Below are positions 18,731 through 41,639 of a stretch of 64,000 nt of DNA, one piece after another (position 1 is the first letter of the stretch; each line of letters opens with the position of its first letter). The translations under genes were made by a program, and so were the position numbers. Under the pieces are notes generated by a model, which was given only the letters and a program-made list of their open reading frames with translations, was not told the DNA's origin and searched no databases. The stretch comes from the human T2T-CHM13v2.0 reference genome, Homo sapiens, in the NCBI GenBank assembly GCA_009914755.4, contig CP068257.2:9664001-9728000 (forward strand), written 5' to 3'.

Positions 18731-18733
<3 letters not shown>

Positions 18734-18769
<36 letters not shown>
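18734..18769. repeat. (CA)18 dinucleotide microsatellite
   Basis: An uninterrupted run of acacac... is directly visible. Confidence 0.97.
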
Positions 18770-18770
<1 letters not shown>

Positions 18771-19989
18771 GCGTTCAGATATAAAGATTTCAACTGTAGC
18801 ATCATTTGTAATAAACAATATTGGAAACAATGTTGGTATATATTGCTAAGAAAATGTGTTGAGATCAATTTAGTATAATTATATAATGAGATATATGATT
18901 ATTTCATTTCTTTATGGAATGAGTGTAATGGGAAAATCCAGTGGAAAGCTTACGTTAAAGCTAAGAAAGTTAAATCTTTAAGACCTTTCATATGTATGGG
19001 TCTTTCTCGGGGTCATATGAGTTTTGCAAAATTTGCTGTGTAAGATGCTTAATTAAAAATAAGAAAAGCCACACCTGTTTTGACTCCCATTTGCCTTTAG
19101 TCATTTATCTCCCTGTCAGGTAGTGCGGGTCCAGCCTACAACACTTTTAGTATTCAGCTAAGGGGAAGTTGAATAGAGACATATTTAATTTCAGTTCATT
19201 GAGGTTAATGTGTTTGATTTAAAGCCACTTCCATGTAAAATGAAGTTGTTTCTGGCAGTTCAGAGACTTTCTATTGCTCACTCCATAGATTCATCCAGTG
19301 TCGTAGCACAGAGGTGCAGAGGCAGAGAATGTTGTGAGACACATGTCATGCAGTACTTGGTACCAGAGGCTGCAGAGAAGGAAAGAAACAGCTGCCCTTA
19401 ACCTAGCTCTCCTTTCCACTAATTCTTACCGTGGTGGTGATGTGGTGAGAACCAGATGTCCTACATGTAAGGGGATCTGCTGTAGGCAAAGAACTCTGGA
19501 AAAAAGAACCTGAGCGTTTTTGTGGAAGAGTGACCCAGTTGCTCTTGACCCCCTTCTGAGTGTGTCTCCATAGTCACAAAACGGAAAAAAAACTGAGTTC
19601 TTACTTTAACCATTTGGATAAAAATAAATCTCTCTAGGGGAAAGATAACACTAGAGTCTCCAGCTTTGTAACTTCTGGGATGCATCTACTGGGTCTCATC
19701 TTCTCTTGAAATGTAAATATATATCCCTAGTGAGGTAAATCCCTCAGGATGGCCCCTAACCATGTTCTTTCTGTGAATTAATTTCCAGAGCTAGTTCTTA
19801 GCGTAGAGCAGAAGTCTGAGTAAAATTTGTTGAGAAAGTTCTTACTATGCATAAATAACTTTATTTACAGCCTAACACTATCCATTAAAATCAACAAGAG
19901 AAAGACAAACTAATCCAAAATGACCCTGCAATCGGGGCTCTAAAACAATGCAGGTTGACTGTAATTGTTAAAATGAATTTGGAAAGTAT

Positions 19990-25879: not shown

Positions 25880-26183
25880 AATTCAAAAGGCAAAAGGTAC
25901 TGTAAAAAAAGTTATTTGATCACATGTAAATGAAAATTCTACCTTCTTATTGAATTTTACTAATTAGAGGGGTAATTATTCTCACATCAGATTATTTGCA
26001 CAAGATACTATTTCTGATGTATTTTATTAAAGAACTCAAAAGGCAAAGGTATTGTAAAAAAAGTTATTTGATCACATGTAAATGAAAATTCTACCTTCTT
26101 ATTGAATTTTACTAATTAGAGGGGTAATTATTCTGGCATCAGATTATTTGCACAAGATACTATTTCTGATCTATTTTATTAAA
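25880..26183. repeat. Tandem duplication of a ~152-bp unit (2 copies, ~95% identical)
   Basis: Copy 1 is at 25880-26029 and copy 2 at 26030-26183. Both read ga(a/t)(t/c)tcaaaaggcaaa(a)ggta(c/t)tgtaaaaaaagttatttgatcacatgtaaatgaaaattctaccttcttattgaattttactaattagaggggtaattattct(ca/gg)catcagattatttgcacaagatactatttctgat(g/c)tattttattaaa. Confidence 0.95.
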
Positions 26184-26469
26184 AGTCACCATTTATTATT
26201 GGTTTTCATCTCATGTTATATATGCAAATGAAACTCCTTTGAGTATGCAATGGTTATTTACTGCAGTGAATATTGTACAATCATATTTATCAAAATGTTC
26301 TTCTTCAAAATATTTTTCTAATGCTTATTAGCAAGCAGTTTTTATATTTGAGAAAGTGAAACATGGACTTTAGAATCAGATTTAGGCCATATGGTAAGCC
26401 AGCTGCCTGAAAAATCTTCATAACAAATGCTAATATTGATGAATTTTGGAGATGTCATTATATATGTAT

Positions 26470-27460
26470 ACCTAAAACTACAGGAAAACAAAGAAAATTA
26501 CCAATGCCAGAAACACAGGCAACACTTAAAACCAGCAAGACCAGTTGCTCTGACTTTTCTGGATGGAAAGAGAGATGGACCCAGCAATTTATAAATTTGG
26601 ATTTTCTTAAGGCTCATCAGCGAAGGGGTGATGCATAGCTGGACCTAGATTGAAAGAGTAAAGAAAAATACTTATTAACCAACCCAGTACAATTAAGAAG
26701 TTTGTCTGTAAATACTAGAACAATTGGTAGAAAAAACAAATACATATTCTCCCCTGAGAATCTGTAACATCAGGATTATCCATCATGTGTTGTTTGACTT
26801 CAAACTTATAAATTATACAGCCTTGAGCCATGAAGCATCAAATTAACAAATTAACATATAGATTATTTTCTGGCCATTGATACACTGGAAGTTTGGTGGA
26901 AGAGATGCAAAATCATTCCAGAGCAAAAGCTGAAAATTTTTTTCTGCAAAGGGCAAGATAATAAACATCTTACACATTATTGACCATTTTAAAGAGCAGC
27001 TTATAGTCACCAAAAGGAATATCAACAAACTAGCAAGTGAAGATAAAGAATTATCCAGAATGCAGAATATGAACCAAAAGATAGAACATAAGATAAGCTG
27101 AAAGACATGGAGGATTGAATAAAACTATCCAAGGAATATCTAAAAGAAATTCTGAAAAGAGAATAGTAGGAATAAAAATAATGAGATTATAATAGTTTGC
27201 TTCTACTTCTGGGATGAATGTAGTAGTTGTATAAGACACATACTCTTATTAAAATGACAAGAAAAAGCTGGATAAATTATAAAAGCCACATATCTTTTAA
27301 AGCATGAGGGAACTGTAGAAGCAATGATGAATAGATGAACTAAGAGTACAGACATACCTGAGTGTTCGAAATGGGCCAAAGAGCATGATGCATTCATAGC
27401 ATCTACTAGTCAATTCTGGCACAAATTAGGAAGTAGAAGGCATGTTCAATGGAGGCAAAA
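26470..27460 (+). mobile_element. Probable ancient L1 (L1M) 5'/ORF1-region fragment
   Basis: The strand is A-rich and has the word usage typical of old L1 ORF1/ORF2 coding strands (gaaagacatggagg..., gaataaaaataatg...). No family-level match was made. Confidence 0.3.
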
Positions 27461-27539
27461 CAGTAATATATATATAAACATGTGGGTAAGTCTAAAGAAG
27501 CATTTGCTATATTGAATCAAACAAATACAATAAAGTAAA

Positions 27540-27960
27540 ACAAATACTAGAGAACATTGTTAAACTGAGTTAAGTTTGGCTCAAAGTGCCCATTGTACTT
27601 GCCTAATTAAGTTTGGCCCAAAGTGGCATCCATACATAGTGACTGTACTCTAACTTAATGTGTAAATAAGTTGTAAGCTAATGTAGATGTATGGACTTGT
27701 AACCAAGCAACTGAGACTCAACCAATCATAGGAGCCAAACCCTTAGTCAATCCCAAACTGAATGCTGCCAAATTATGCCCAAATAAGGCAAATATTGAAC
27801 TGCACCAATCAGGGAAACTCTGAATATAATTTTCTATGTTCTGGTTATAAATACATCTCACCACTCTGGATGTGGAGTCACTCTGAACAATCTTCGTTCT
27901 GGGATGGTGCCTAGTTCTCAAACCTTTTTCTTGGTCAAATAAACTTAGTGAAATTTAACA
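27540..27960 (+). mobile_element. Possible solo LTR (ERV-type), family unknown
   Basis: It contains a TATA-like ttataaatacatctcacc followed ~110 bp downstream by aaataaacttagtg (a poly-A signal). This is a U3-R-like layout. The segment interrupts flanking L1M-like sequence. Confidence 0.3.
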
Positions 27961-28753
27961 TGTCTTAGTTGTATTTTTTTAAACAACATTCAAAGACCTA
28001 CGAAATAGGACAGGGAACTTGTATTTAGACTATACTGTCTAAATGCAACTTATTTATGCTAGTTATTTGTGTGTTATAGAGAATATAGTGATATTGATAT
28101 ACTTTAAGTCATTTATGTACATCGGGAAGAGGAAAAAAAAAAGTTACCCAATTCAATGGAAGTCAAATGAAGAAGCAGAATAGAGCTACCAGAAAAACAT
28201 GATAAGAGTTAAAGAAGATGGGAGCTCAAAGAGGAAAACTATCACTGAATTTGGGGAACTTCTCCTTGCAAGCCAAGTTAACTTTTGTTCAGATAGAATT
28301 CTCAGATGAAAAAAGACAGAAATTATAGTCTATGGCTGACAAAATATAGAGAGTCTGCCCAGAGACTTTTGCTATTCTAAGCTAGAATCTTAAGGTTAAT
28401 ACACTTCAATGAAGGAGAAAACAAGAACCAACTCTTGAGCATACTTGAAGTCTGGGACCAAATCTGAGTTGTTCAGATACTCATATTTTCACCCTGATTT
28501 AAGATGATCTGATATGGGTAATGCTTGCATAATCAAAACTTCTGGAGGAACTTATCTCCATAGTAGACAACAAGGTAATCTTAAACTATCCTGACACTAA
28601 TTGGGTGTATAAACTTGGCCAAGTCATTTTTCCCTTTGAGTCTCAGTTTCGTCAACTGTAACGTGAATATGAAAGTAACTAACTTGTAGGTCTGTATTAA
28701 AAATTAAGTCAATTATTTTGGTAAATCAGTTGTATGCAATATAGCGTACATGA

Positions 28754-28830
28754 GAGAGAGAGAGAGAGTTTGTGTGCATGTGTTTAGAGAGAGATGGAGA
28801 GAGAGACACACATACACAGAGAAGAATCAG
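28754..28830. repeat. (GA)n-rich simple repeat
   Basis: The tract gagagagagagagagagtttgtgtgcatgtgtttagagagagatggagagagagacacac is directly visible. The track ORF 28726-28923 overlaps it. Confidence 0.85.
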
Positions 28831-28939
28831 TATATTGTTAAGGATAACAACATCTAGAAACAAATCGACAGACAAGAAAAACAATTTAAGTAATAGAATT
28901 TTCAGACAGAAGTTAAAGAACAAAACATATGCTTAAAGA

Positions 28940-29470
28940 TGCCCACAGGAAAATACAAATATGATCATGGTAGATTTAGAAAGGAAATACCTGCTAGAAG
29001 TAACAGAGAACTACAGGAAAATTAATGAAGTGCAGTAGGAAGAAAGAAAATAAATTATTGAAGAAAAGTTTCAAGATACAAAGGATAGAATTAAACATTA
29101 ATATATGTCTAAACTTTACCAGGAAAAGAGAGACAAAGGCAATAACTAAGGAAATAATAGAGAATGTTTTTAGTACTGATTGAAGACAGATAAGCAGATT
29201 TAAGCAGGTCAACAAATTCTGAGTGGAGTAAGAAAAGTACAGTGAAGAAAACAAAAGACAAAGCCAAAATTCTGTAAAGCAACCTGAAAATAAGGCTTAT
29301 TACCATTAAATAACAACATTTCAGTCTATAGAAACTTACATCCTAGGAGAGGGAATACTTTAAATAAAAAAGTAATGGATGAAAGGAGAAAAATTCCATC
29401 AAGTGGGATAACTGTGATCCATAAAGAAGTAGCAGGTGAGATGGGGAGTAAAAAAACAAACATATATAAA
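28940..29470 (+). mobile_element. Probable ancient L1 (L1M) ORF1-region fragment
   Basis: An A-rich coding-like strand (aaggaaataatagagaatgttt..., aaagcaacctgaaaataaggctt...) resembles the ORF1 region of old mammalian L1s. The match is weak. Confidence 0.35.
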
Positions 29471-30365
29471 TCCTCTTATTTTATATATTAGAGCTCAATT
29501 TTATTCCCATCTTTGATAATCCAAAAATTATACACTGATCAATATATCTGTTCTAAATGTTAAGATTCCAACAGGTAGATCATGTCTCTCAAAATGTGTT
29601 GCACATTGCCTCAACTGGAGGTTCATGATGCATATTAAAATAAGAAAGGCTTAGAGAATTCTTACAGCAAGGAAAACAATGTAAGTTTATTTAATTTAGT
29701 GTTTTAGCTACATATTTAATAATTATTTTAGGTAGGCAGTTGTTTAAAGACAATAGAAAATACTTGGAATTTAAAGCAAGCAAAAATGAATGTGTTGGAA
29801 AAGCACAACGCAGCTCTTAGAATTGAAAAAAAAGTAGGTGAACCAGGCTCAGGCAGGAATCAGAGAGCAAGTCAGAACCAATATCAGAAAAAGGAAGTTC
29901 TGCTTTTCATGTGGCTATTGTCCTGTCAGTCATGACCGCTGGCCACTGCCAGCAAAGCATGCACAGGCATTTTCTGGAATGCTGCTGGGCTCTGCTTTAG
30001 CTTGTCACTTCCCACTTTACCATTGGATTCCAAAAATCTATCCATCCGACAGGAATAATTTCAGACTCTCTGCCTACTTCTTACCTTGCAAGGTTAAAAA
30101 TGCAAGGAATGAGTGGCTATTCTTGGGTCTCTGGTTTACATTTTAGCCTCCAGGTGGTGGGAAGAGAAAAATCTACTCACAAACAGCTTCAAAACGGAAA
30201 GGCCCTATATTGGCATTCCTACATAAAAGAAAGTACTGGGGGGCTTGACAAATGGACATTTGCCTTCAAAGAACACATATTCTCCTTTAGACAAAGTTTG
30301 CACTTATATAGCACAATTAACCTACTTCTTATCAATCAATAAAATGAAGAGACAATTACAGAACA

Positions 30366-30915
30366 GGATAAGGTGTTTGCAAACTATGTATTCAACAAGG
30401 TTTAATATCCAGAATATATAAGGAACTCAAAAAACTCAATAGCAAAAGAAAAAGTTGATTAAAAAATGGACAAAAGAAGACATACAAATGGCCAAAAAAT
30501 ATATAAAGAAATGCTCAACATCATTAAGCCTCAGAAAAATGCAAAACAAACCCACAATGAGCTATTACCTTACCCCAGTTTAAATGATGAATATTATCAA
30601 GAAGACAAAATATAACAAATGGAAACGATAATGTGGAGAAAGAGGAAAGTTATACACTGTTGATGGGAATATAAAATAGTATAGCTGTTATGAAAAGCAG
30701 TATGGAGTTTCCACAAAAAATAAAAAAGAGAACTATTATATTACCCAGCAATCCCACTACTGCGTACGTAATAAAAAAAAAAATGAAATTAGTATGACAA
30801 AGAGACATCTGCACCCAGGGATATTGAAGCATCATTCAAAATAGCCGTGATATGGAATCTGCCTAAATACTCATCTAACAACAAATGGATAAAGAAAAAG
30901 TGGTGTATAAATGTA

Positions 30916-30958
<43 letters not shown>

Positions 30959-31195
30959 TTATCATCTATCTATTTATCATCTATCTATCCACCCCTCCAG
31001 AACAATATTCAGCCATAAAATGCTGTTATTTTTAGCAATGTGGATGAAGTTGGAGGACATTTTGTTAAGTGAAATAAGCCAGGCACAGAAAGACGCACTG
31101 CATGATCAAATTCATATCTGGAGTTTTAAGGATATGGAGAAAGATGTTAGGTTTTTTCCTTGTGTGGACAATATTTAAAATTATTATATTTGGAG
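30366..31195 (+). mobile_element. LINE-1 3'-end fragment (older L1P/L1M type) containing an internal STR
   Basis: The run ...tatccagaatatataagga..aaaaatggacaaaagaagacatacaaatggccaa...atgctcaacatcat...gaaaaatgcaaaacaaacccacaatgag...cactgttgatgggaatataaaatagtatagc...acccagcaatcccactact...aaatggataaagaaaaagtggtgtata / ...ttcagccataaaatg...gaggacattttgttaagtgaaataagccaggcacagaaag parallels the L1 ORF2 C-terminus and 3'UTR. Confidence 0.85.
30915..30990. repeat. (TATC)n tetranucleotide STR (~12 pure units plus degenerate units)
   Basis: The tract tatctatctatc... is directly visible. It is embedded at the tatacacaatgg position of the L1 above. The track ORFs with SIYLSIYL are its translation. Confidence 0.95.
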
Positions 31196-33477
31196 AGATA
31201 ACTAGAATACTCCTGCCAACTTAACTATGACCCATTGAATTGCTCTGAATTATAAATCAGATACTCTGAATTAGCACTTCACTACCATTTTTAAATCTAC
31301 AGCATTTATGTAAATTAATAACTGCTGTAGAGCATACTACTCATGGCTGAAAAAAGTGACCTGATGATTCGAGCTATCTAAGACTCACCTGATGTCTAAC
31401 AGCACTAAGGATCAAGCTATCACCTCTCCCTTAACACATCTTTCACACCAGTGTGCTAGAGCAGATAGCTGAAAAGTTTTCCCTAAGCCAGAGATCATTC
31501 TGACAAGGCATATGGAACAATAGAGATGTCAACATGCTTTCAAGACAAGTAACAGTAATCCTGGCTCTTAACTTGCTTTAATAATAATGAATTCTTTTAT
31601 CAAGTCCTGAGGAATGAGGGCTTCCAGGTGCCATATTTCCAGGTGCTTATCAGAATTTTTCTTTGCTGATAAGAACAATTGTTGCAGCATGCTTTGCTAT
31701 TCATATACAGAAAGACAAGAAATTTATATTCTAATAATAGAACACAAGTCCATCTCTTGCATCTGATTTAGCCAGATTAAGTCACCTTTCCACCAATATC
31801 AATCTGGAAGTGATATCATGAACTAAATGGTGTCAACCTGGGGTTTCTATTATATCTCGACAAAGAAAAAGAAGTTGCCATCATTGGCAAGGCACATACA
31901 GGATACATCTCTGTTTCGGGAGATGGGATGAGATTTCCCTGATTCTCCTACACTGCAGAGGGTAGAGGGAGGTATTTATATAATACACGGGATTTTAATT
32001 GAAGAAGCAAAGAGGAATGGATTATTGGGATTAATAGTGTTTATCCAATACAAGATGAAAAACAACATATTATTGTTTGTATTGTGATGGTTCTAGAATA
32101 AAACACATCATTTCTCTAATTTTGGTTAGATCTTTGCTGAAAGAAAAAGATAAATAAAATATCCTACAGTTTATCCATATCCATGTTCCTCTACACTAAA
32201 TATTCATCTTTGATTAGTTATTTTTAACTATATTTGATTTCTTTATAAATTACCTTTTGAAACTTTAAACACATAAAGACATTGTTTCCCCTCAAAGGAT
32301 TTTTCTTTTGCTTTCTTTTGTTTTTTTTTTATCTAAAACTTTCTTTCAAAAACAATGACTTTCATAAACTTGCAACTTGTTAAATATAGTATTTTTATTA
32401 ACATTCTAGTTTGTAACACAAGGCAAAACCTAAACACTTACCATTTATAAATAATGGGTAATACTGTTTCAACTTAACCTTGAGAATGTAGAAAAAAAAT
32501 TGAGTCCAGTCTGATAGCAGCCAAAAGATCTCAGAAACAGTAATCTTAGTGCTAGCCTGGCAGACACAATCTGCACAGAACTTAATCAAAATAAGATTAA
32601 AAGTCCATAGCAATTTCCTTGAGTGGCCAGTCAGATATCCCCCACTACAGTCACCAACCAGCCTGCCCCTGGGGCCTATTTCAGAAATAAATTGGTTTGT
32701 AGATGAGCTGATGCAGAAGAAGGAAAAAAAAATGTTTTCTTGAGACTGTACCTAAATCTTATCAAGTAATACAAGGAAGCTTCAAAGTCTTTTTATTCTG
32801 AAATGTTATTTTATTCTGCTTTATATCATCTTAAATTTATTAGTATTATATTAAATATTAGTTTATGTAAGCTTATTATTTGACTCTGTATAGGATATAA
32901 TAGATGGCATTGAATATTTAATAAGATAGCAACAGCAATAACACCTGAGAAATTGTTCAGGGAAGGATTCTATTCAGTTATTAAAAGATTTGCATACTTA
33001 TTTCACTAATATTACTCAGCAATCACAAACATTGGGTAATGCTAGACAAATCTGCAAGAGGTACTGTTATTCCAGCACCTTAAAAACATTTTTCAATCTG
33101 AAAGATACTTCTAGATGTTTTTTTCCATAACAGAGCAGATGATTTCTAAGTGTTTATATCACTGAAACTTCACAGTATTAGTGGAATATGTTATCCTTTA
33201 TACCAAAAGTAATCAGATTATTTTATAAAGCAATTATCAATTAAATATAGATTACTAAGAACATACTGTATAAAATGCCGTATGGGCTATTAATTCTGCA
33301 TGCATTGCCACATTTGATTATCTCAAAAAACCTCCTGAAATATGTATTCTTAACACACTTTTATTGAGATTATGAGTAATAAAAGTTAAAAGATTTTCCC
33401 AAAGACGTACAAGTAAAACAGGTCCTCAAATAAAGTTGTTTTGTTCAATGATGTTTCGCTATAATGTAGATGAGAAT

Positions 33478-33725
33478 AAATATTGATTCCTGGACAGGGC
33501 TACCATCTGTGTAGGGTCTGCATGTTCTCCCCACGCCTGCATGGGTTTTCTCCAGGAACTCCTGCTTCCTCTCACATCCCCAAGATGTGCATGTCTGGTT
33601 AATTGGCATTTCCCCACTGTGTGTCCCCATGTGAGTGAATGTGGTTGTGCCCTGCCATGGAATAGCATCCTGTGCAGGGTTTATTCCTGCATTACATGCT
33701 GAGTAAGAATAGGCTCTTGCCACCC
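33478..33725. other. GC-richer ~245-bp block resembling a vertebrate-wide conserved repeat family
   Basis: The motif gcatgttctccccacgcctgcatgggttttctccaggaactcctgcttcctctcacatccccaagatgtgcatgtctggttaattgg closely parallels catgttctccccgtg.ctgcgtgggtttcctccgggtactccggtttcctcccacagtccaaagacatgc, which is abundant in teleost and other vertebrate genomes. The flanks are ordinary AT-rich sequence. Confidence 0.45.
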
Positions 33726-34149
33726 GAGACTCTGAACTGGAATAATTGGGTAAATAATCATCTTACTTGTTTTTATTAATCTTTTTAAAAATGTATGTAT
33801 ACCTCACACTTATTTCAGTGTTGAATGTTTTAAGTGTTTTAGTCTTCATTTAGAAGTACAGTGATAATATTGTGACCAGAAATATGCAGTAGGAACTTAT
33901 ATATTGTTTTATCAATTGGCCTATGGTAAAATTTGTTTCATTGTTCACCATTTTGCTGATAGTTGCAGTTTCCAATAATCTACTGATATTAAATGTGGAC
34001 TTACTATGTAAACAATAGCAAGGATCCTAAATCCTAGGTTACATCTAAGTTTAAATGGCTTGACACCATGTCAGAATTGCCTTATCACCATGCTCTTATA
34101 AGTGTTTCATTTTTTAAAACAGTGCAAACTGAATTTTGCATGAGTATTA

Positions 34150-34290
34150 TCATTAAAAATTTTTTTGTTACAGATAGGATCTTGCTATGTTGCCCAGGTT
34201 GACCTTGAAGTTCTGAGTTCAAATGATCCTTTTGCCTCAGCATCCAGTGTACCTGGGACTACAACTGTGTGCCACCATACCCAGGGCTGC
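34150..34290 (-). mobile_element. Alu monomer-like fragment (FLAM/FRAM-like), minus orientation
   Basis: The segment gatcttgctatgttgcccaggttgaccttgaagttctgagttcaaatgatcc..gcctcagcatccagtgtacctgggactacaactgtgtgccaccatacccaggg is directly visible. Confidence 0.7.
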
Positions 34291-34483
34291 AGGAAAAGTT
34301 GTTACGTAAAGCAGTGATTTATGAAAATAAGACTTTATTTGGGCAACATAGAAAATGTAAACAAAAAGAGTTGCTCAACATAAAACTTACTCAAGTCACA
34401 ATTTACCTCTGACATGACATATTTCCATCCACTTCAGAAAAAAAATGTGTATACCTTTTTATTTCTTTTTTTCTTTTCTTTCC

Positions 34484-34517
<34 letters not shown>

Positions 34518-34757
34518 CGGGCTGGAGTGCAGTCACAGCTCACTGCACCTTTGAGCTCCTGGGCTAAAGTAATCTTCCTTTCTCAGCCTCTTGAGTAGTT
34601 AGAACTAAGACATGCACCACCATGTCTGGCTAATTTTTAACATTTTTTTTGTGGAGATGGAGTCTCGCTATGTTGCCCAGGCTGGTCTTGAACTTCTGGC
34701 CACATGCTATCCTCTCACCTCGACCCCCCAAAGCACTTGGATTATTGGCTCAAGTAC
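34484..34757 (-). mobile_element. Alu SINE, minus orientation, diverged, with a ~36-nt poly-T (tail)
   Basis: A long T run is followed by agacgggctggagtgcagtcacagctcactgcacc...gcctcttgagtag...catgcaccaccatgtctggctaattttt...gagatggagtctcgctatgttgcccaggctggtcttgaact. Confidence 0.85.
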
Positions 34758-37700
34758 TTAGATGTATTAACCAGGATCACAGAGAGCTTGATTTTGTAAG
34801 TTTGAGTTAGCATGTAATAACTGCAGTTGATTTTGATGCATGTATTTAATGAGAATCATTGCTTTAGACTATATGATATTTGAAACAAAAGAGCAATAGG
34901 ACTGCACGGCACAATATAAAGTCTGTTATGACATAGTGACTTTAATATATTCTAATTAAAATTATAATAGTAAAAGCTAAAAATGACAAGACAATTGTTA
35001 GAAATCATATCACGACAGCATAATCATGTATCCAGAAGTGATTGATACAATAACATGAACTGACATTTTGCTACAATATTAATCAGTTAATACAGGTTTT
35101 GAGGTTTCAGTTAACTGGTTAATCATAAAATATTATATAAAATATTATCAAATTGTTGTGTAAGTCATCTCACTGTATTCTAAAATTTATGTTATTTTAT
35201 ATTTCTAATCTGTGTTTTGCAGAGATCATGAAAATTTTAACTGGGTAACTGAAGAAGAATTGTCCCAAGGACTTGAATAAATGTTAATGTTCATAACAGT
35301 ATGTTCTAAAAAGAAATTTAAGTAAAAAAGGAAAAAACATATTTCATTTTAAAAATATCTACCCATGCACATCATTCATCTAAAAAACCCATTTACTATA
35401 ATCATCTAGTTATGTAAAGATATACCCAATAGCTACTTAAAATAGAAATATTCTATTTCATTATTAGAAATTATTATTTTAAAAGGTTGTTAAAACATCA
35501 AAAATATGCTTATTTCTAGTAACCAGAGAACACAGCAGGGTTATGAAACTTCGGATTCCTGTTTGGTTTGGCAGGTAACTAGATTAACAAAAATACGAGG
35601 TTTTGAGTTTCAAAACACAATAGCATATTTAAAAAATACTTGGTGGGAGTCTGGCAATTGAGAGACCTTAGAAGCATAATCATTGGTCTTCACAATCACT
35701 GCCAGGTACTCTTTCAAACTAGCTTGAATAACTGCAAAACACATCATCAACCCAGCTTTTTTTTGCTGGACCTGGGCATATATAAACTGATTAGATTTAA
35801 AAATAAAAAAATTAGAGTTTTTTCTGTTGTGTTTGAAGAGGTGAACCCTTGGACTCAAAATCTCTCAAAAGTCCTGTCTTTCACTTCAGAATCTGCGTTA
35901 ATTTGCACAGGAATATACTTCTGTGTTTTAATAAACACATGTAATTTTTCTGTTTTCATCTTGCAAGTAATGACAGCTTTGTTCTCAAACCAATTTTGTT
36001 TTTTATAGATTTTACCCTGATATATAATGAAGAGACAATTACATGATCTGTGTAGAAATTCTTCCTCTAAACTAAATTATACTACCTTAGAAATCTGACA
36101 TGAAAGTACCAAAACTATGTAAATTCATTTCACCAAGAAAATTATTACATAAAACAGTGATTCATGGAAATAAGACTTGATTTGGGCAACATAGAAAGTA
36201 TTAAAACTAAAAAGGAGTTGCTTGAGATAAAATTTACCCAAGTGACAATTTTACCTGTGACAAACATATTTCCATCCACTGCAGTAACAAATGTGTTTAG
36301 TTTATTAAAGTATATGTTTAACAGCAAAAAATAAATAGAATAAATTTATTATCCCTATCCAGTGATAAACACAATTTTAAAATAAAAATAAAAACATCCT
36401 GCTTATATTTGCTATACTATTTCATGCATTAGGCTAAGATATATGGTTATTTCCATGCTTTCAGGATGTGTTTAACAAATCTCTTATACATTTTCCTATT
36501 GTTGTCATTTTAATATCTTGAATATAATATTAAATAAACATTTCTACAAATAATTTGAACCTCAAAGTTTCATAAGCATCTATCCTTCAATATTTAGGCC
36601 TAAAAAGTAATCTCCATTATCTATCAAATTCTAAATTTGAACTTATTATGGTTTACTCCTACTTTTTAATTATTACTTTGGTTAAAGATACTTCATGATA
36701 TTATTAAGTTCCTTACTAATAATGTATATGGTTGTATTACATTCATTTATCCATCAAGACTAACTTTGAGCTACTATGAAATATAATTCAAATCATTCAT
36801 ATAATATCTAATGAATGATTATTATAATACAAAGCACTATACTAGGTTTCATAAGTGATACAAAAACAAGTGCAACCGCCTCAGTAACCAACACATTTGC
36901 AGTCTAATAGAGGAAAACAAGCCCTGTTATAAGAATAATTATAGTAAAAGACTATATAAAATACAATCCATTTTGACACACACACCTTCAACTCTATTTG
37001 CTAATTCTAATTTTCACTCTTCAGTTTATTTTTAGATTAAATAGTTATTTTCACAAATCAGTCTGAGGACAGAGTTTTTTGCTTTGTTTTGTTTTGTTTT
37101 GTTTTGTTTTTGTGAGTCATCAGCACTATGCAATTGCATATACCTGTCGTGTTTGGTCTACAGAGGCTAAACATCATGTAATAGTTTTTATGCATTTTGT
37201 TCATAGGTTACTGGGTGCTTTAAGGCAAAACTGAATGAGTTTCCAATAGTCCAAAACTACAAGAAATACAGACACAAAGTGCCTGGGGTTATCCTCAAAT
37301 GAAGTTAGATTTGAATTGCATTCAATAACCTTTTTTACAATGTGTAGATGCTCAAAGCAAATACAATAGTTTCTCTTTGCCTCTGTGACTTGAGTTCATA
37401 GTGTTGTGTTTAAATATAACTTTTGTAATGTCTACTTCACTGAAGAAACTTTTAAAAAAATTTGACTTATAATGGTTTTCTGTAACAACCTATGGTGCTT
37501 GGTTTGTAAAGTAAAACAGGAACTCAATTTAGTACCTACTGAATAATAACATTTTTTAACTGAGATTCCACTCATAAAGCACCTAAATGTTTAAAGTTAA
37601 AGCATATTATGTTGATATTAAATTTAAAAAGAACAAGTTAGAGAAGAAATAAAGAAAAAAAACTTCGGAGAATAAACTGCTTCCAAGTATACAAGCACTA

Positions 37701-38724
37701 AACAGGCTATACACTGGTATGCTCATTATAAATAAAAACATTCATTCATGTCATTTTATCTCATTACTACATATTTAAAATAATCTCTTATCATTATAGT
37801 AGGCCATCATTTTCCAAATAGCATCAAGAATCCTTATTTTGAAATAGTAATCAGATCATGTAGTTCTCCTGATCAGATCTCTTCACACTCTAGAATAATA
37901 TGCATACCTTCATTTTAGCTTTTAGACTTTTTTCTGATCTAGCTCTAGATTATTGTTTGATCTCATTTTTACTATTCTTCTCATTGCTCATTCAATTCAA
38001 TTTCAAGCATAATGATTTTTTGCTCTTTTTGGAATACACTAGCTTTTTGATTTCATTAGAGCCTGTACACTTCCCTCTTCCTGAAATGTTCTTCCCCAAA
38101 TTTATGTATAGCTTATTCTCTCTTTGTTCAGGGCTCAGTGTAATTGTAGATTGTTCTCTACCTTGAATATGTCTTACCCCTCATTTGACTGGTTTTCCTT
38201 CATACCAATTATTTGTATTCTAAAATATTTTATATTTTTCCATTGACTTGTTCACTGAGTTCCTTCCTCTAAAATGTAGCTTCATGAGGGCAGATATTTT
38301 GTTAAAATTGTATGCTACTGTATCACTAGAACTGAGAACAATGCCTGAACAGAGTAGCTACTCATGACTCATTGGCTAAAACAAGTTAATGAATGAGAAC
38401 AGGCAGGTAGAAAGCCAGGAAGGAAAGGAGGCTATTATATTAAGTTGAATGAGGGATTAAATGAATATAAATCAGCTGAAAGTAGCATAGGTTATGCAAT
38501 ATGCTTAATAAAGTATGTTTGTCTATTTTCGTTATGTAATCCAAAACCTGGCCAACCACAAAACTGGCTTTTTACTCACTTTCTCTTTCTTCCCTGTTTA
38601 GTGCAGCATAAAATTAGTTATTGATTTTATCTCTTAACGCTCCGCCTCTATTAGTGAAAGGATCTTCTCTTATCATATTTCCAGTCCAAAGTTCAGTGGA
38701 AACTTTTTACACTCTTACAGTCTA

Positions 38725-39972
38725 TTTGAAATCCTTATATCATAAACATACCAGCACTTATCACAGCACTATTCACAGTAGCAAAGATACTGAATCAACC
38801 TAAGTGTCCACCAATAGATGATTTGATAAAGAAAATGTGAGATGGTACCATCTCACTCCAGTTAGAATGGAGATCACTAAAAAGTCAGAAAACAACAGAT
38901 ACTGGAGAGAATGTGGAGCAATAGGCATGCTTTTACACTGTTGGTGGGAGTGTAAATTAGTTTAACCATTGTGGAAGACAGTGTGGCGATTCTTCAGGGA
39001 TCTAGAACTAGAAATACATTTTGACCCAGCAATCCCATTACTGGGTATATACCCAAAGGATTATAAATCATCCTACTCTGAAGACACATGCACACATATG
39101 TTTATCGCAGCACTGTTCACAATAGCAAAGACTTGGAACCAACCCAAATGCCCACCAATGATAGACTGGATAAAGAAAATGTGGCACATATACATCATGG
39201 AATACTATGCAGCCATAAAAAATGATGAGTTCATGTCCTTTGCAGGGACATGAATGAAATTGGCAAACATCATTCTCAGCAAGCTAACACAAGAACAGAA
39301 AACCAAACACTGCATGCTCTCACTCATAAGTGGGAGTTGAACAATGAGAATACATGGACACAAGGAGGGGAACATCACACTCCACAGCCTGTCAGAGGGT
39401 GAGGGGCTAGGGGAGGGATAGCATTTAGAGAAAGACTTAATGTAGATGACAGGTTGATGAGTGCAGCAAACCACTATGGCACGTGTATACCTACATAACA
39501 AACCTGCAAGTTCTGCACATGTACCCCAGAACTTAAAGTATAATAAAAAAGATTTCCACCTAAAGATAAGAAAATATGATGATATACACAATGGAATACA
39601 ATTCAGCCTTTAAAAATAATATACTTATGAAACATGTATTTTGGAGCAGTTTGGATGGAACTGGAGGACATTATCTTAGATGAAAGTCAGACACAGAAAG
39701 ACAGATACTGCGTGTTCTCATTTATAAATGGGAGGTAATTAATATGTTCACATGGACATAGAGTGTGCAATGATAGAGACTTGGACATGAAGACTTGGAA
39801 GAGTTGGGGGAGAGTGAGAGGGGAGTAAATGATAAGAAATTACTTAATGAGTACAAGGTATGCTTTTCAGGTGATGAATATGCTGAACATCCTGACTTCA
39901 CTATGCAACATATGGATGTAACAAAATTACAGTTGCACTCCATAAATTTATAGAAATAAAATAAAATAAATT
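38725..39972 (+). mobile_element. Older LINE-1 3' end (ORF2 C-terminus + 3'UTR), split by a nested younger L1
   Basis: The 5' part, 38725-38840, reads ...cacagcactattcacagtagcaaagatactgaatcaacctaagtgtccaccaatagatgatttgataaagaaaatgtg. The 3' part, 39566-39972, reads ataagaaaatatgatgatatacacaatggaatacaattcagcc...ggatggaactggaggacattatcttagatgaaagtcagacacagaaag...ttctcatttataaatgggag... and ends aaataaaataaaataaa. Confidence 0.8.
38841..39551 (+). mobile_element. Younger LINE-1 (L1PA-type) 3' end nested inside the older L1; ORF2 C-terminal remnant + 3'UTR
   Basis: The run agatggtaccatctcactccagttagaatggagatcactaaaaagtcag..aacaacagatactggagagaatgtggagcaataggcatgcttttacactgttggtgggagtgtaaattagtttaaccattgtggaagacagtgtggcgattcttcagggatctagaactagaaatacattttgacccagcaatcccattactgggtatatacccaaaggattataaatcat... 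ends ...cacatgtaccccagaacttaaagtataataaaaaag. The track ORF 38969-39253 (MWKTVWRFFRDLELEI...IYPKDYKS...WIKKMWHIY..MEYYAAIKNDEF) is an L1 ORF2p C-terminal fragment. Confidence 0.9.
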
Positions 39973-41639
39973 ACATTTTAATAGAGACACTATCAGAGAA
40001 ATACACCAAAATGACTGGACTGAACTGGAAATGGAAAAGGTAGAAATCTCATTTTCTCTTCAGAGACTATTGCAAATTTGTATGTATGTAATACACTAAT
40101 CACATCAGATGCCAGTTTTAAGTACATATTTTCCTCCACTGTGTAGATTTGTTTCAATAAGGAAACATTTCAGAACATACATAATCAATACAAAGCCATT
40201 CTCAGTAATTTATTTTCATTCCATGCCATGTTACTTAGGTTTACATTTACTACCTTAGAAAACATTATGTACAAAAACTTTTCTTTCTTATAGTGAATTA
40301 AATCTCCAACTGCTTTTGTTTCTATTTTAAGAAAGTAAATATTATGACATAAATGTTTGCAATGTTTTTGTTTAAATAAAGTATTTCTAGATTTCTCTTA
40401 ATTCATAGTTACGTTGGTTTCTTTATTGATGTTCAAACACAGACTTTTAAAAATTCATATTTTTTTAAAATGTGTGACTATTTACTTTCTAGTTCAATTT
40501 AAAAAGCATTTACCATAAAAATGGCAGTATCTTTTTGTACAGATGCTACCTCTGAATCAAAGCCTTTCAGCAACTGGCAACAGGAAGCTCTAATGCACTT
40601 TATCCCTAATAGTTATAAAATATGCAATCATCTGAAATCACATATTGATTTCATATTGATTTCCACTTCTTTTCTAACTACGGTTATACGTAAATATTTC
40701 ACTTTCAAAAATAGATCTTTGCCTTTTTATTTAGTTTTTTTTTCCTTGGCTTAGAAATAGTTTTTATGAAATATTCAAATATAAAAATAGTCTGTAAAAG
40801 CAAAGTATGGTTCTTTTTCAGCCAAAACACTTTCCCCTAAGCATTTCATTAGTTATATAAGTGATAAATGTTTTTCTGAATGGGAATTTACCTAAAGTGT
40901 TTCAAAATTAGGTGACCATTTGTGCTTTCCAAACCATACAGAACTTTATATTTATTCCTGGGTAAATCACCCATTTCCTTGTTCATCAAGATCAGGTGAA
41001 ATGATATCCATATGAGATAATTAATTCCTCTGCTATCTATTTTATTATACTTAGTTATCCATTGAAAATAAATATCTACTATAACAAGTAAAATATATAA
41101 TAGTGTAGAAGACAACAAGAGTATGTGTTTGCAGTATGTGTAATAGAGTTAAATATATCTAAATATAGTATGTCTGTATTAAGGCAATGAACATCAATTT
41201 TAGCTAATCACCCTCATTAAAGCAAAGGGCACTACCATATGTGACATAGTTATCATTGACAGTCTGATAAATCTTGTAGCTGAGGTAACGGACAGGGAAG
41301 AGTTTGTGATAGTGAAATTTGTAGAACTAAGATCAAATTACCAAATACGTAGGCATTATTAAACAAATTCTCACCAATTACTTCAAAAATATTGTAACTT
41401 CTATTTAATATTTCTTGTTTTTAATCTTAAAAACTCTAAATTGAGTAGAATTTGAAATAGCAGTAAATTTCAGGTTAATGGAAATAAAATCACACTTGTT
41501 ATTATTGTTCAATTTTTTTTATTAAGTCTGAAGAAATATTTAATTGAATATGACATCTAAGAATGATGGACAAAAGCTTTTTTTCTTTCCACTCCTTTTT
41601 CTGAAAGCTTTGATACAAAAATCATTTGACACAAATGAT

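What the first reader, a model, noticed from the sequence alone, without database searches (positions are those of the whole stretch)
33478..33725. GC-richer ~245-bp island that looks like a member of a repeat family conserved across vertebrates
In an otherwise AT-rich stretch, the core of this block aligns by eye to a sequence abundant in teleost and other vertebrate genomes. The core reads catgttctccccacgcctgcatgggttttctccaggaactcctgcttcctctcacatccccaagatgtgcatgtctggttaattgg. The vertebrate sequence reads catgttctcccc-gtgcctgcgtgggtttcctccgggtactccggtttcctcccacagtccaaagacatgc-...ggttaattgg. This level of similarity between mammal and fish is unusual for neutral DNA. It suggests either an ancient exapted element (conserved non-coding element) or a SINE/DNA-element core under constraint. 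The two minus-strand track ORFs here (92 and 69 aa) have no repeat explanation I can name. They are probably incidental, given the low-complexity G/C content.
Basis: partly seen in the sequence, partly recalled or inferred. Interest (0 to 1): 0.6.

Follow-up and report, generated by a model that had tools for sequence, protein, structure and literature searches.

The report
Decayed MER6A transposon carrying V-SINE core
The GC-rich block is the fish-SINE-like middle of an ordinary, full-length but dead copy of MER6A, a known small DNA transposon of primates. Its likeness to fish repeats comes from that transposon family, not from conservation at this site.

Summary
Window 33478-33725 is 50% GC in a 34% GC window. 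Its core (33521-33606) does match the "V" highly conserved domain of vertebrate V-SINEs, at 74-77% identity to published fish and frog consensus sequences (E 1e-9 to 2e-13).

The island is only the middle of a larger element. Window 33416-34008 (593 bp, + strand) aligns end to end with the published MER6A consensus (positions 4-605 of 606, E 5e-133; 81% identity in a global alignment). It has the MER6A-specific internal deletion junction, decayed terminal inverted repeats and a flanking TA/TA target-site duplication.

MER6/MER6A is a known Tc1/mariner MITE of primates (MER6A also occurs in bats and eulipotyphlans). It carries a head-less Ac1-like V-SINE (Luchetti et al. 2019, PMC6887750).

This copy looks neutral:
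- Its divergence (JC 0.216) equals the family mean.
- The V domain is no better kept than the rest (80.1% vs 81.6%, p = 0.73).
- Only 2 of the 33 consensus CpGs survive.
- No Rfam or Pfam hit was found, and no RNA fold is significantly more stable than shuffled sequence.

The minus-strand ORFs are incidental. Verdict: already known and ordinary.

The parts
33414..33415 (.). Left copy of the TA target-site duplication
   Evidence: '...caagTA|AAACAGGTCCTC' is read directly from the sequence. MER6 insertions are flanked by a TA duplication (PMC6887750).
33416..33439 (+). 5' terminal inverted repeat (consensus positions 1-24), decayed: the terminal CAG now reads AAA
   Evidence: Global alignment to the MER6A consensus and coordinate map. 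About 18 of 24 positions match the consensus.
33416..33472 (+). 5' mariner-derived terminal region of MER6A (consensus 1-58)
   Evidence: 78.9% identity to the consensus. The paper reports that the 5' 56-57 bp are homologous to Mariner-2_CPB.
33474..33649 (+). V highly conserved domain region (consensus 60-240).
   Evidence: 80.1% identity to the MER6A consensus. blastn hits of fish Ac1 and frog V-SINE consensus sequences fall at 33506-33619, with E down to 2e-13.
33650..33747 (+). Remainder of the Ac1-like SINE body, up to the MER6A deletion junction (consensus 241-345). The SINE's tRNA head and its (TGAA)n tail are both absent.
   Evidence: 77.8% identity to the consensus. Local alignments to fish Ac1 consensus sequences run to 33734-33758. 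No tRNA-like sequence was found.
33738..33756 (+). MER6A-diagnostic junction (ctggaataATTGGGTAAATA) where the 261-bp MER6 internal segment is missing
   Evidence: The MER6 consensus aligns in two pieces (4-347 and 593-859) that abut in the window at 33741-33751. The MER6A consensus aligns in one piece. The junction reads as in the MER6A row of Suppl. Fig. S2.
33748..34008 (+). 3' AT-rich MITE part of MER6A (consensus 346-606). It includes the mariner-derived 3' end.
   Evidence: 83.7% identity to the consensus. The paper reports that the 3' 101-104 bp are homologous to Mariner-2_CPB.
33983..34008 (-). 3' terminal inverted repeat (consensus 583-606), decayed, with a 2-nt insertion before the final TG
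   Evidence: Alignments. About 18 of 24 positions match the consensus.
34009..34010 (.). Right copy of the TA target-site duplication
   Evidence: 'GGACTTACTATG|TAaacaat' is read directly from the sequence.

Best explanation
Window 33416-34008 is one full-length, inactive copy of MER6A, in + orientation. MER6A is a non-autonomous Tc1/mariner DNA transposon (a MITE) already catalogued in Repbase and RepeatMasker.

The family arose in two steps. A mariner element lost its transposase gene, and a fish-type Ac1-like V-SINE, lacking its tRNA head, became embedded in the remnant. The composite was then copied around the genome by a mariner transposase supplied in trans. That transposase recognises the 24-bp terminal inverted repeats and inserts at TA dinucleotides by cut-and-paste.

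It stands out only because the MITE's own sequence and the surrounding DNA are AT-rich.

After insertion, tens of millions of years ago in a primate ancestor, this copy decayed at roughly the neutral rate. Today it most likely does nothing.

Shown here: family membership, boundaries, target-site duplication, subfamily junction, and the even decay across modules. Taken from the literature: the origin of the family, its host range and its age. Inferred: trans-mobilisation by a now extinct transposase, and the absence of present function.
For: - blastn of the MER6A consensus (transcribed from Suppl. Fig. S2 of PMC6887750) against the whole window gives one hit: consensus 4-605 to window 33419-34005, E 4.7e-133.
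- Global alignment gives 475 matches, 110 mismatches and 29 gap columns. That is 81.2% identity and JC 0.216, within the 19-22% mean divergence reported for primate MER6A copies (Table 1).
- The MER6 consensus aligns in two pieces that skip its internal segment, so this copy is the MER6A variant.
- TA flanks both ends.
- The consensus inverted repeats match each other at 18 of the first 22 positions. Both are recognisable in the copy, though mutated.
- The fish and frog V-SINE similarity covers only 33485-33758. It is weaker (72-77%) than that of the MER6A consensus to the same fish sequences (79-83%).
- There is no sign of constraint. The V domain is 80.1% identical to the consensus and the rest of the element 81.6% (Fisher p = 0.73).
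- Of 33 consensus CpGs, 2 are kept and 20 have become TG or CA. The island has 1 CpG where 15.7 are expected.
- Eleven Alu matches show the window is from a primate, the reported host of MER6 and MER6A.
- There is no tRNA and no Rfam match at gathering score. RNA fold z-scores are +0.5, +0.4, -1.45 and -1.88. The ORFs have no Pfam match.
Against: - The consensus was read from a machine-converted PDF table. About 5-9 nt were lost, and 25 nt of the MER6A row had to be filled in from the MER6 row, so per-site numbers are approximate.
- The MER6B and MER6C subfamilies exist in Repbase but could not be compared, so the subfamily label could shift.
- No vertebrate genome alignments were available. 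Lack of constraint is therefore inferred from divergence to the consensus, not from orthologous comparisons.
- Some MER6 copies lie in UTRs or lncRNAs, and a role for the V domain has been hypothesised. A function for this copy is not strictly excluded.
Confidence: 0.96

Rival explanations
1. This MER6A copy, or its V domain, has been exapted by the host. It could act as an enhancer or other cis-regulatory element, or as a regulatory module inside a transcript (UTR or lncRNA), and so be under purifying selection.
For: The paper reports that about 40% of MER6/MER6A copies lie in or near genes. It also reports that dozens occur in human mRNAs, UTRs and lncRNAs, and it speculates on a V-domain function.
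Against: Divergence equals the family average (against Table 1). The V domain is no better preserved than the AT-rich MITE parts. 31 of 33 CpGs are lost, as expected for methylated, unconstrained DNA. No fold is significantly more stable than shuffled sequence. The region is AT-rich and full of repeats, and nothing was recognised as an exon within +/-7 kb: ORFs of at least 90 aa in 26000-41000 have no Pfam hits.
Confidence: 0.03
2. The island is an independent V-SINE retroposon insertion, or an ancient V-SINE relic shared by descent with fish. In that case it is not part of a DNA transposon.
For: There is significant similarity to fish Ac1-like and frog V-SINE consensus sequences.
Against: The SINE-like segment lacks the tRNA head; alignments start at fish consensus positions 56-89. 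It also lacks the 3' (TGAA)n/(ATGG)n tail. It is flanked colinearly on both sides by the non-SINE parts of MER6A, out to the inverted repeats and the TA duplication. V-SINEs as such are reported absent from amniotes.
Confidence: 0.005
3. The island is a functional gene feature: a protein-coding segment (the 92-aa or 69-aa minus-strand ORFs), a CpG-island promoter, or a structured non-coding RNA.
For: Open reading frames exist on both strands. GC content is locally raised.
Against: The ORFs have no Pfam family. No gene with the 92-aa product is on record. The ORFs are explained by the scarcity of stop codons in a 50% GC stretch. CpG observed/expected is 1/15.7, so this is not a CpG island. No Rfam family reaches even E < 0.1 inside the element, and none reaches gathering score anywhere in the window. 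Fold z-scores are not significant.
Confidence: 0.005

Closest known systems
MER6A (Repbase/RepeatMasker; Tc1/mariner non-autonomous DNA transposon, a MITE), as analysed by Luchetti, Lomiento & Mantovani 2019 (PMC6887750)
   Same: The alignment is colinear over the whole consensus (4-605 of 606, E 5e-133). This copy has the same internal deletion junction relative to MER6, the same inverted repeats and TA duplication, and the same embedded head-less Ac1-like V-SINE. Its divergence is typical of primate copies, and the host is a primate.
   Different: Nothing of substance. This copy is 593 bp rather than about 606-615 bp, because of small indels: a 12-nt loss in the (GT)n-like stretch and a few 1-3-nt indels. 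Both termini are mutated. The MER6B and MER6C subfamilies could not be compared.
MER6 (865-bp parent variant)
   Same: Both ends and the V-SINE module are shared (consensus 4-347 and 593-859 align).
   Different: The 261-bp internal segment of MER6 (about 348-592) is absent from the window copy.
V-SINE superfamily, Ac1-like SINEs of bony fishes and Racla-like SINEs of frogs
   Same: The V highly conserved domain and most of the Ac1 body are recognisable: 72-77% identity over 190-260 nt.
   Different: There is no tRNA-derived head, no LINE-type or short-repeat tail, and no retroposon-style insertion boundaries. The segment is an internal passenger of a DNA transposon and cannot retropose.
Exapted SINE-derived conserved non-coding elements (for example the CORE-SINE-derived POMC enhancer nPE2, PMC2000970; AmnSINE1/LF-SINE elements)
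   Same: Both are SINE-core-derived sequence found in a mammalian genome.
   Different: Those elements are defined by orthologous conservation far above neutral. Here divergence from the source consensus is at the family's neutral average, and the CpGs have decayed. Orthologous conservation could not be measured.

Membership tests
MER6A (Tc1/mariner MITE) | End-to-end sequence similarity to the family consensus | tested here: met
   Consensus 4-605 of 606 aligns to window 33419-34005 with E 4.7e-133. The global alignment gives 81.2% identity.
MER6A (Tc1/mariner MITE) | 261-bp internal deletion relative to MER6, with the primate/bat-type junction | tested here: met
   MER6 aligns as 4-347 plus 593-859, abutting at 33741-33751. 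The junction reads GGAATAATTGGGTAAATA, as in the MER6A row of Suppl. Fig. S2.
MER6A (Tc1/mariner MITE) | 24-bp terminal inverted repeats | tested here: met
   Both termini align to the consensus repeats at about 18 of 24 positions each. The 5' CAG is mutated to AAA, and there is a 2-nt insertion at the 3' end. They are recognisable only through the consensus: the repeat finder did not pair them directly.
MER6A (Tc1/mariner MITE) | TA target-site duplication | tested here: met
   TA is present at 33414-33415 and at 34009-34010. A 2-nt match alone is weak evidence; it counts only together with the exact element ends.
MER6A (Tc1/mariner MITE) | Embedded Ac1-like V-SINE body with the V domain at about consensus 60-240, without the tRNA head | tested here: met
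   Fish and frog consensus sequences hit 33485-33758 only. No tRNA was found.
MER6A (Tc1/mariner MITE) | Host is a primate, bat or eulipotyphlan | tested here: met
   There are 11 Alu-motif matches against 0 expected. That Alu is restricted to primates is established knowledge.
MER6A (Tc1/mariner MITE) | Better match to MER6A than to the sister subfamilies MER6B and MER6C | not testable with these tools
   MER6B and MER6C are listed in Repbase, but no consensus for them was available.
V-SINE (autonomous-partner-dependent retroposon) | V highly conserved domain | tested here: met
V-SINE (autonomous-partner-dependent retroposon) | tRNA-derived head with a Pol III promoter | tested here: not met
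   ARAGORN finds nothing. Alignments to full-length fish consensus sequences start at their positions 56-89. The sequence upstream of that is the mariner terminal region.
V-SINE (autonomous-partner-dependent retroposon) | LINE-related 3' tail ending in short tandem repeats | tested here: not met
   The (TGAA)n tail present in MER6 and the fish consensus sequences is removed by the MER6A deletion. The window reads straight into the MITE 3' part.
Conserved non-coding element / exapted TE | Substitution rate at orthologous sites well below neutral across species | not testable with these tools
   No vertebrate genome alignments were available. The proxy points the other way: divergence equals the family mean, decay is even across modules, and 31 of 33 CpGs are lost.
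CpG island | High GC with CpG observed/expected above about 0.6 | tested here: not met
   GC is 50.4%, but there is 1 CpG against 15.7 expected.

The most novel reading that the evidence does not exclude
This MER6A copy lies in a transcribed region, and its V domain acts as a post-transcriptional or cis-regulatory module. This is the role hypothesised, but never demonstrated, for V-domain SINEs in fish mRNAs and for MER6 copies in primate UTRs and lncRNAs. Selection would be too weak or too recent to show in divergence from the consensus.
Probability: 0.03. Interest if true: 0.4.

Novelty: already known. Interest (0 to 1): 0.07.

Why it matters
It matters little for this locus. This is one of roughly 500 MER6A fossils per primate genome, and any RepeatMasker run would label it. 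That question is already described in the literature (Ogiwara et al. 2002, as cited in PMC6887750; Luchetti et al. 2019), and this copy adds nothing new to it. The practical lesson is that similarity between a mammalian sequence and a fish repeat consensus need not mean orthologous conservation.

Tried and rejected
- Searched for the terminal inverted repeats directly with the repeat finder on 33200-34500. Only weak AT-rich pairs were reported, none at the true ends, because both repeats are too decayed. The ends were found only by aligning to the consensus.
- Full-text search for the fish core sequence string found no papers.
- Looked up the 92-aa ORF in the assemblies collection to identify the source organism or locus; it is not on record.
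- Rfam at permissive E-values on 33000-34300 gave only chance-level snoRNA and miRNA hits, plus a 12-bit SRP hit on the neighbouring Alu fragment. At gathering threshold nothing was found in the whole window.
- RNA folding of both halves of the island on both strands gave no z-score below -1.9.
- Pfam scans of the ORFs in and around the element found nothing.
- Tried to read Ogiwara et al. 2002 (DOI and PMC155270); the paper is not held.
- I deliberately did not spend the large protein or metagenome searches. The collections hold no annotated vertebrate genomes, and the published consensus already gave an unambiguous answer.

Full report
**Observation**

The stated block is there. GC content is 0.515 at 33500-33699, while the flanks are 0.26-0.33. 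The interval 33478-33725 is 50.4% GC in a window of 33.7% GC. The quoted 86-nt core sits exactly at 33521-33606 and is unique in the window. The two minus-strand ORFs (33445-33723, 92 aa; 33459-33668, 69 aa) are present, as are three shorter plus-strand ORFs.

**Replacing a remembered resemblance with a test**

A literature search led to Luchetti, Lomiento & Mantovani 2019 (PMC6887750). That paper states three things:
- SINEs carrying the roughly 120-bp "V" highly conserved domain are absent from amniotes.
- The domain does occur in mammals inside the Tc1/mariner MITE MER6 (865 bp, 24-bp inverted repeats, TA duplication) and its variant MER6A, which has a 261-bp internal deletion.
- MER6 and MER6A occur in primates, and MER6A also occurs in bats and eulipotyphlans.

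The paper's supplement prints the MER6 and MER6A consensus sequences (Suppl. Fig. S2). It also prints consensus sequences of fish Ac1-like and frog V-SINEs (Suppl. Data S1-S2). I transcribed these. The PDF-to-text conversion lost a few bases (860 instead of 865 for MER6). It also lost one MER6A row, from which I filled 25 nt using the identical part of the MER6 row.

**What the island is part of**

blastn of the MER6A consensus against the whole 64-kb window gives one significant hit: consensus 4-605 of 606 to window 33419-34005, E 4.7e-133. The MER6 consensus aligns in two pieces, 4-347 and 593-859. These abut at 33741-33751, so the MER6-only internal segment is missing and the copy is of the MER6A type.

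A global alignment places the element at 33416-34008 (593 bp, + orientation). It has 475 matches, 110 mismatches and 29 gap columns, which is 81.2% identity and a Jukes-Cantor distance of 0.216. The paper's Table 1 gives a mean divergence from consensus of 19-22% for primate MER6A copies, so this is an average copy.

Immediately outside the ends the sequence reads TA (33414-33415) and TA (34009-34010), the expected mariner target-site duplication. Both inverted repeats are recognisable against the consensus at about 18 of 24 positions each. Both are damaged: the 5' CAG now reads AAA, and the 3' end has a 2-nt insertion. That is why a direct inverted-repeat search did not find them.

**Where the fish similarity sits**

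Fish Ac1-like and frog V-SINE consensus sequences hit only 33506-33619 by blastn, at 74-77% identity with E 4.5e-10 to 2e-13. By local alignment they reach 33485-33758 at 72-77% over 190-260 columns. The same fish sequences are 79-83% identical to the MER6A consensus.

So the window copy resembles fish SINEs less than its own family consensus does. It resembles that consensus over its whole length, including the roughly 57 bp on the left and roughly 260 bp on the right that have no fish counterpart. The alignments start at positions 56-89 of full-length fish SINEs, so the tRNA head is missing. ARAGORN finds no tRNA-like sequence. The (TGAA)n tail is removed by the MER6A deletion.

The block is therefore not a SINE insertion. 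It is the SINE-derived passenger module of a DNA transposon. It looks like a "GC island" only because the MITE arms and the surrounding DNA are AT-rich.

**Is this copy under constraint?**

I compared identity to the consensus inside and outside several intervals:

| Interval | Identity inside | Identity outside | Fisher p |
|---|---|---|---|
| V domain (consensus 60-240), all sites | 80.1% | 81.6% | 0.73 |
| V domain, non-CpG sites only | 83.7% | 85.4% | 0.59 |

- Of the 33 CpG dinucleotides in the consensus, 2 survive, 20 have become TG or CA, and the rest are otherwise changed or deleted.
- The island has 1 CpG against 15.7 expected, so it is not a CpG island.
- RNA folding of both halves on both strands gives z-scores of +0.51, +0.43, -1.45 and -1.88, none remarkable.
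- Rfam finds nothing above chance in the region and nothing at gathering score in the window.
- The ORFs have no Pfam match, and the 92-aa product is not on record anywhere. Open frames of this length are expected in a 50% GC stretch, where stop codons are scarce.

All of this is what a neutrally decaying, germline-methylated repeat looks like. A direct test, such as phyloP at the orthologous site or presence of the insertion in other species, could not be run because no vertebrate genomes are available through these tools.

**Host and age**

The window contains 11 matches (0 expected) to the Alu left-arm motif. Since Alu is primate-specific (established knowledge), the window is from a primate genome. 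That agrees with the reported host range of MER6 and MER6A.

The paper cites 50-70 Mya (Pace & Feschotte 2007) and proposes about 96 Mya for the family's activity. Using the neutral rate quoted there (2.2e-9 per site per year), this copy's JC distance of 0.216 (0.169 at non-CpG sites) corresponds to roughly 75-100 My. That estimate is rough and given only as an order of magnitude.

**Mechanism**

Shown here: the element's identity, ends, target-site duplication, subfamily junction, modular composition and even decay.

From the literature:
- MER6 arose as an internal-deletion derivative of a mariner related to Mariner-2_CPB of the painted turtle.
- An Ac1-like V-SINE then inserted into that derivative.
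- The composite spread as a MITE.

Inferred:
- This copy was inserted at a TA by a mariner transposase acting in trans on the inverted repeats.
- It has been immobile since, because the repeats are mutated and no active DNA transposon family exists in humans (citing Pace & Feschotte).
- It has no present function.

The resemblance to a vertebrate-wide repeat core is correct, and "SINE/DNA-element core" was a fair guess. The inference that the similarity is "unusual for neutral DNA" and points to an ancient conserved non-coding element is not supported. The similarity was inherited from a transposon master copy that was itself about 80% identical to fish Ac1 SINEs when it amplified. This copy has only drifted away since then.

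Why the V domain is conserved among SINE families, and how a fish-like SINE entered a mammalian MITE, are genuinely interesting questions. They are already published and concern the family, not this locus.

**Verdict**

This is a known repeat (MER6A) and an ordinary fossil copy. Novelty: already known. Interest is low. The residual possibility that this copy has been co-opted is about 3% and would need conservation, chromatin and transcript data to assess.

Noticed in passing
window 1879, 13802, 16134, 45231, 47292, 48439, 49663, 54154, 55473, 59947, 61029: There are eleven matches (at most 3 mismatches, 0 expected) to the Alu left-arm motif GGCTCACGCCTGTAATCCCAGCACTTTGGGAGGC, on both strands. 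The window is therefore primate DNA with a normal Alu load.
   Followed up: partly
window 34217-34284 (-) and 34456-34744 (-): Two Alu-derived pieces lie just right of the MER6A. The first is a short old fragment at 34217-34284; it matches a window Alu at 72% (E 7e-6) and gives a 12-bit SRP hit in Rfam. The second is a larger minus-strand Alu body at 34538-34744, preceded by its poly-T (poly-A on the minus strand) at 34456-34514.
   Followed up: partly
window 38969-39253 (+): A 94-aa ORF (…DPAIPLLGIYPKDYKS…FTIAKTWNQPKCP…WHIYIMEYYAAIKNDEFMSF…) reads like the C-terminal end of LINE-1 ORF2. This rests on memory only; a Pfam scan found no family.
   Followed up: partly
window 30916-30989: A (TATC)n microsatellite of 19 copies lies inside a spurious 97-aa ORF at 30885-31178.
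   Followed up: no
window 18732-18777: A GT-rich low-complexity stretch gives weak chance-level hits to the (GT)n-like part of the fish SINE consensus sequences (E 0.02-0.8). It is not a second V-SINE or MER6 copy.
   Followed up: yes
window 33416-34008 (method note): Two caveats apply to the consensus used. The PDF-to-text version of Suppl. Fig. S2 lost one MER6A row and a few bases, so I filled 25 nt from the MER6 row. Repbase also lists MER6B and MER6C, which could not be compared. The subfamily call 'MER6A' is therefore relative to MER6 only.
   Followed up: partly
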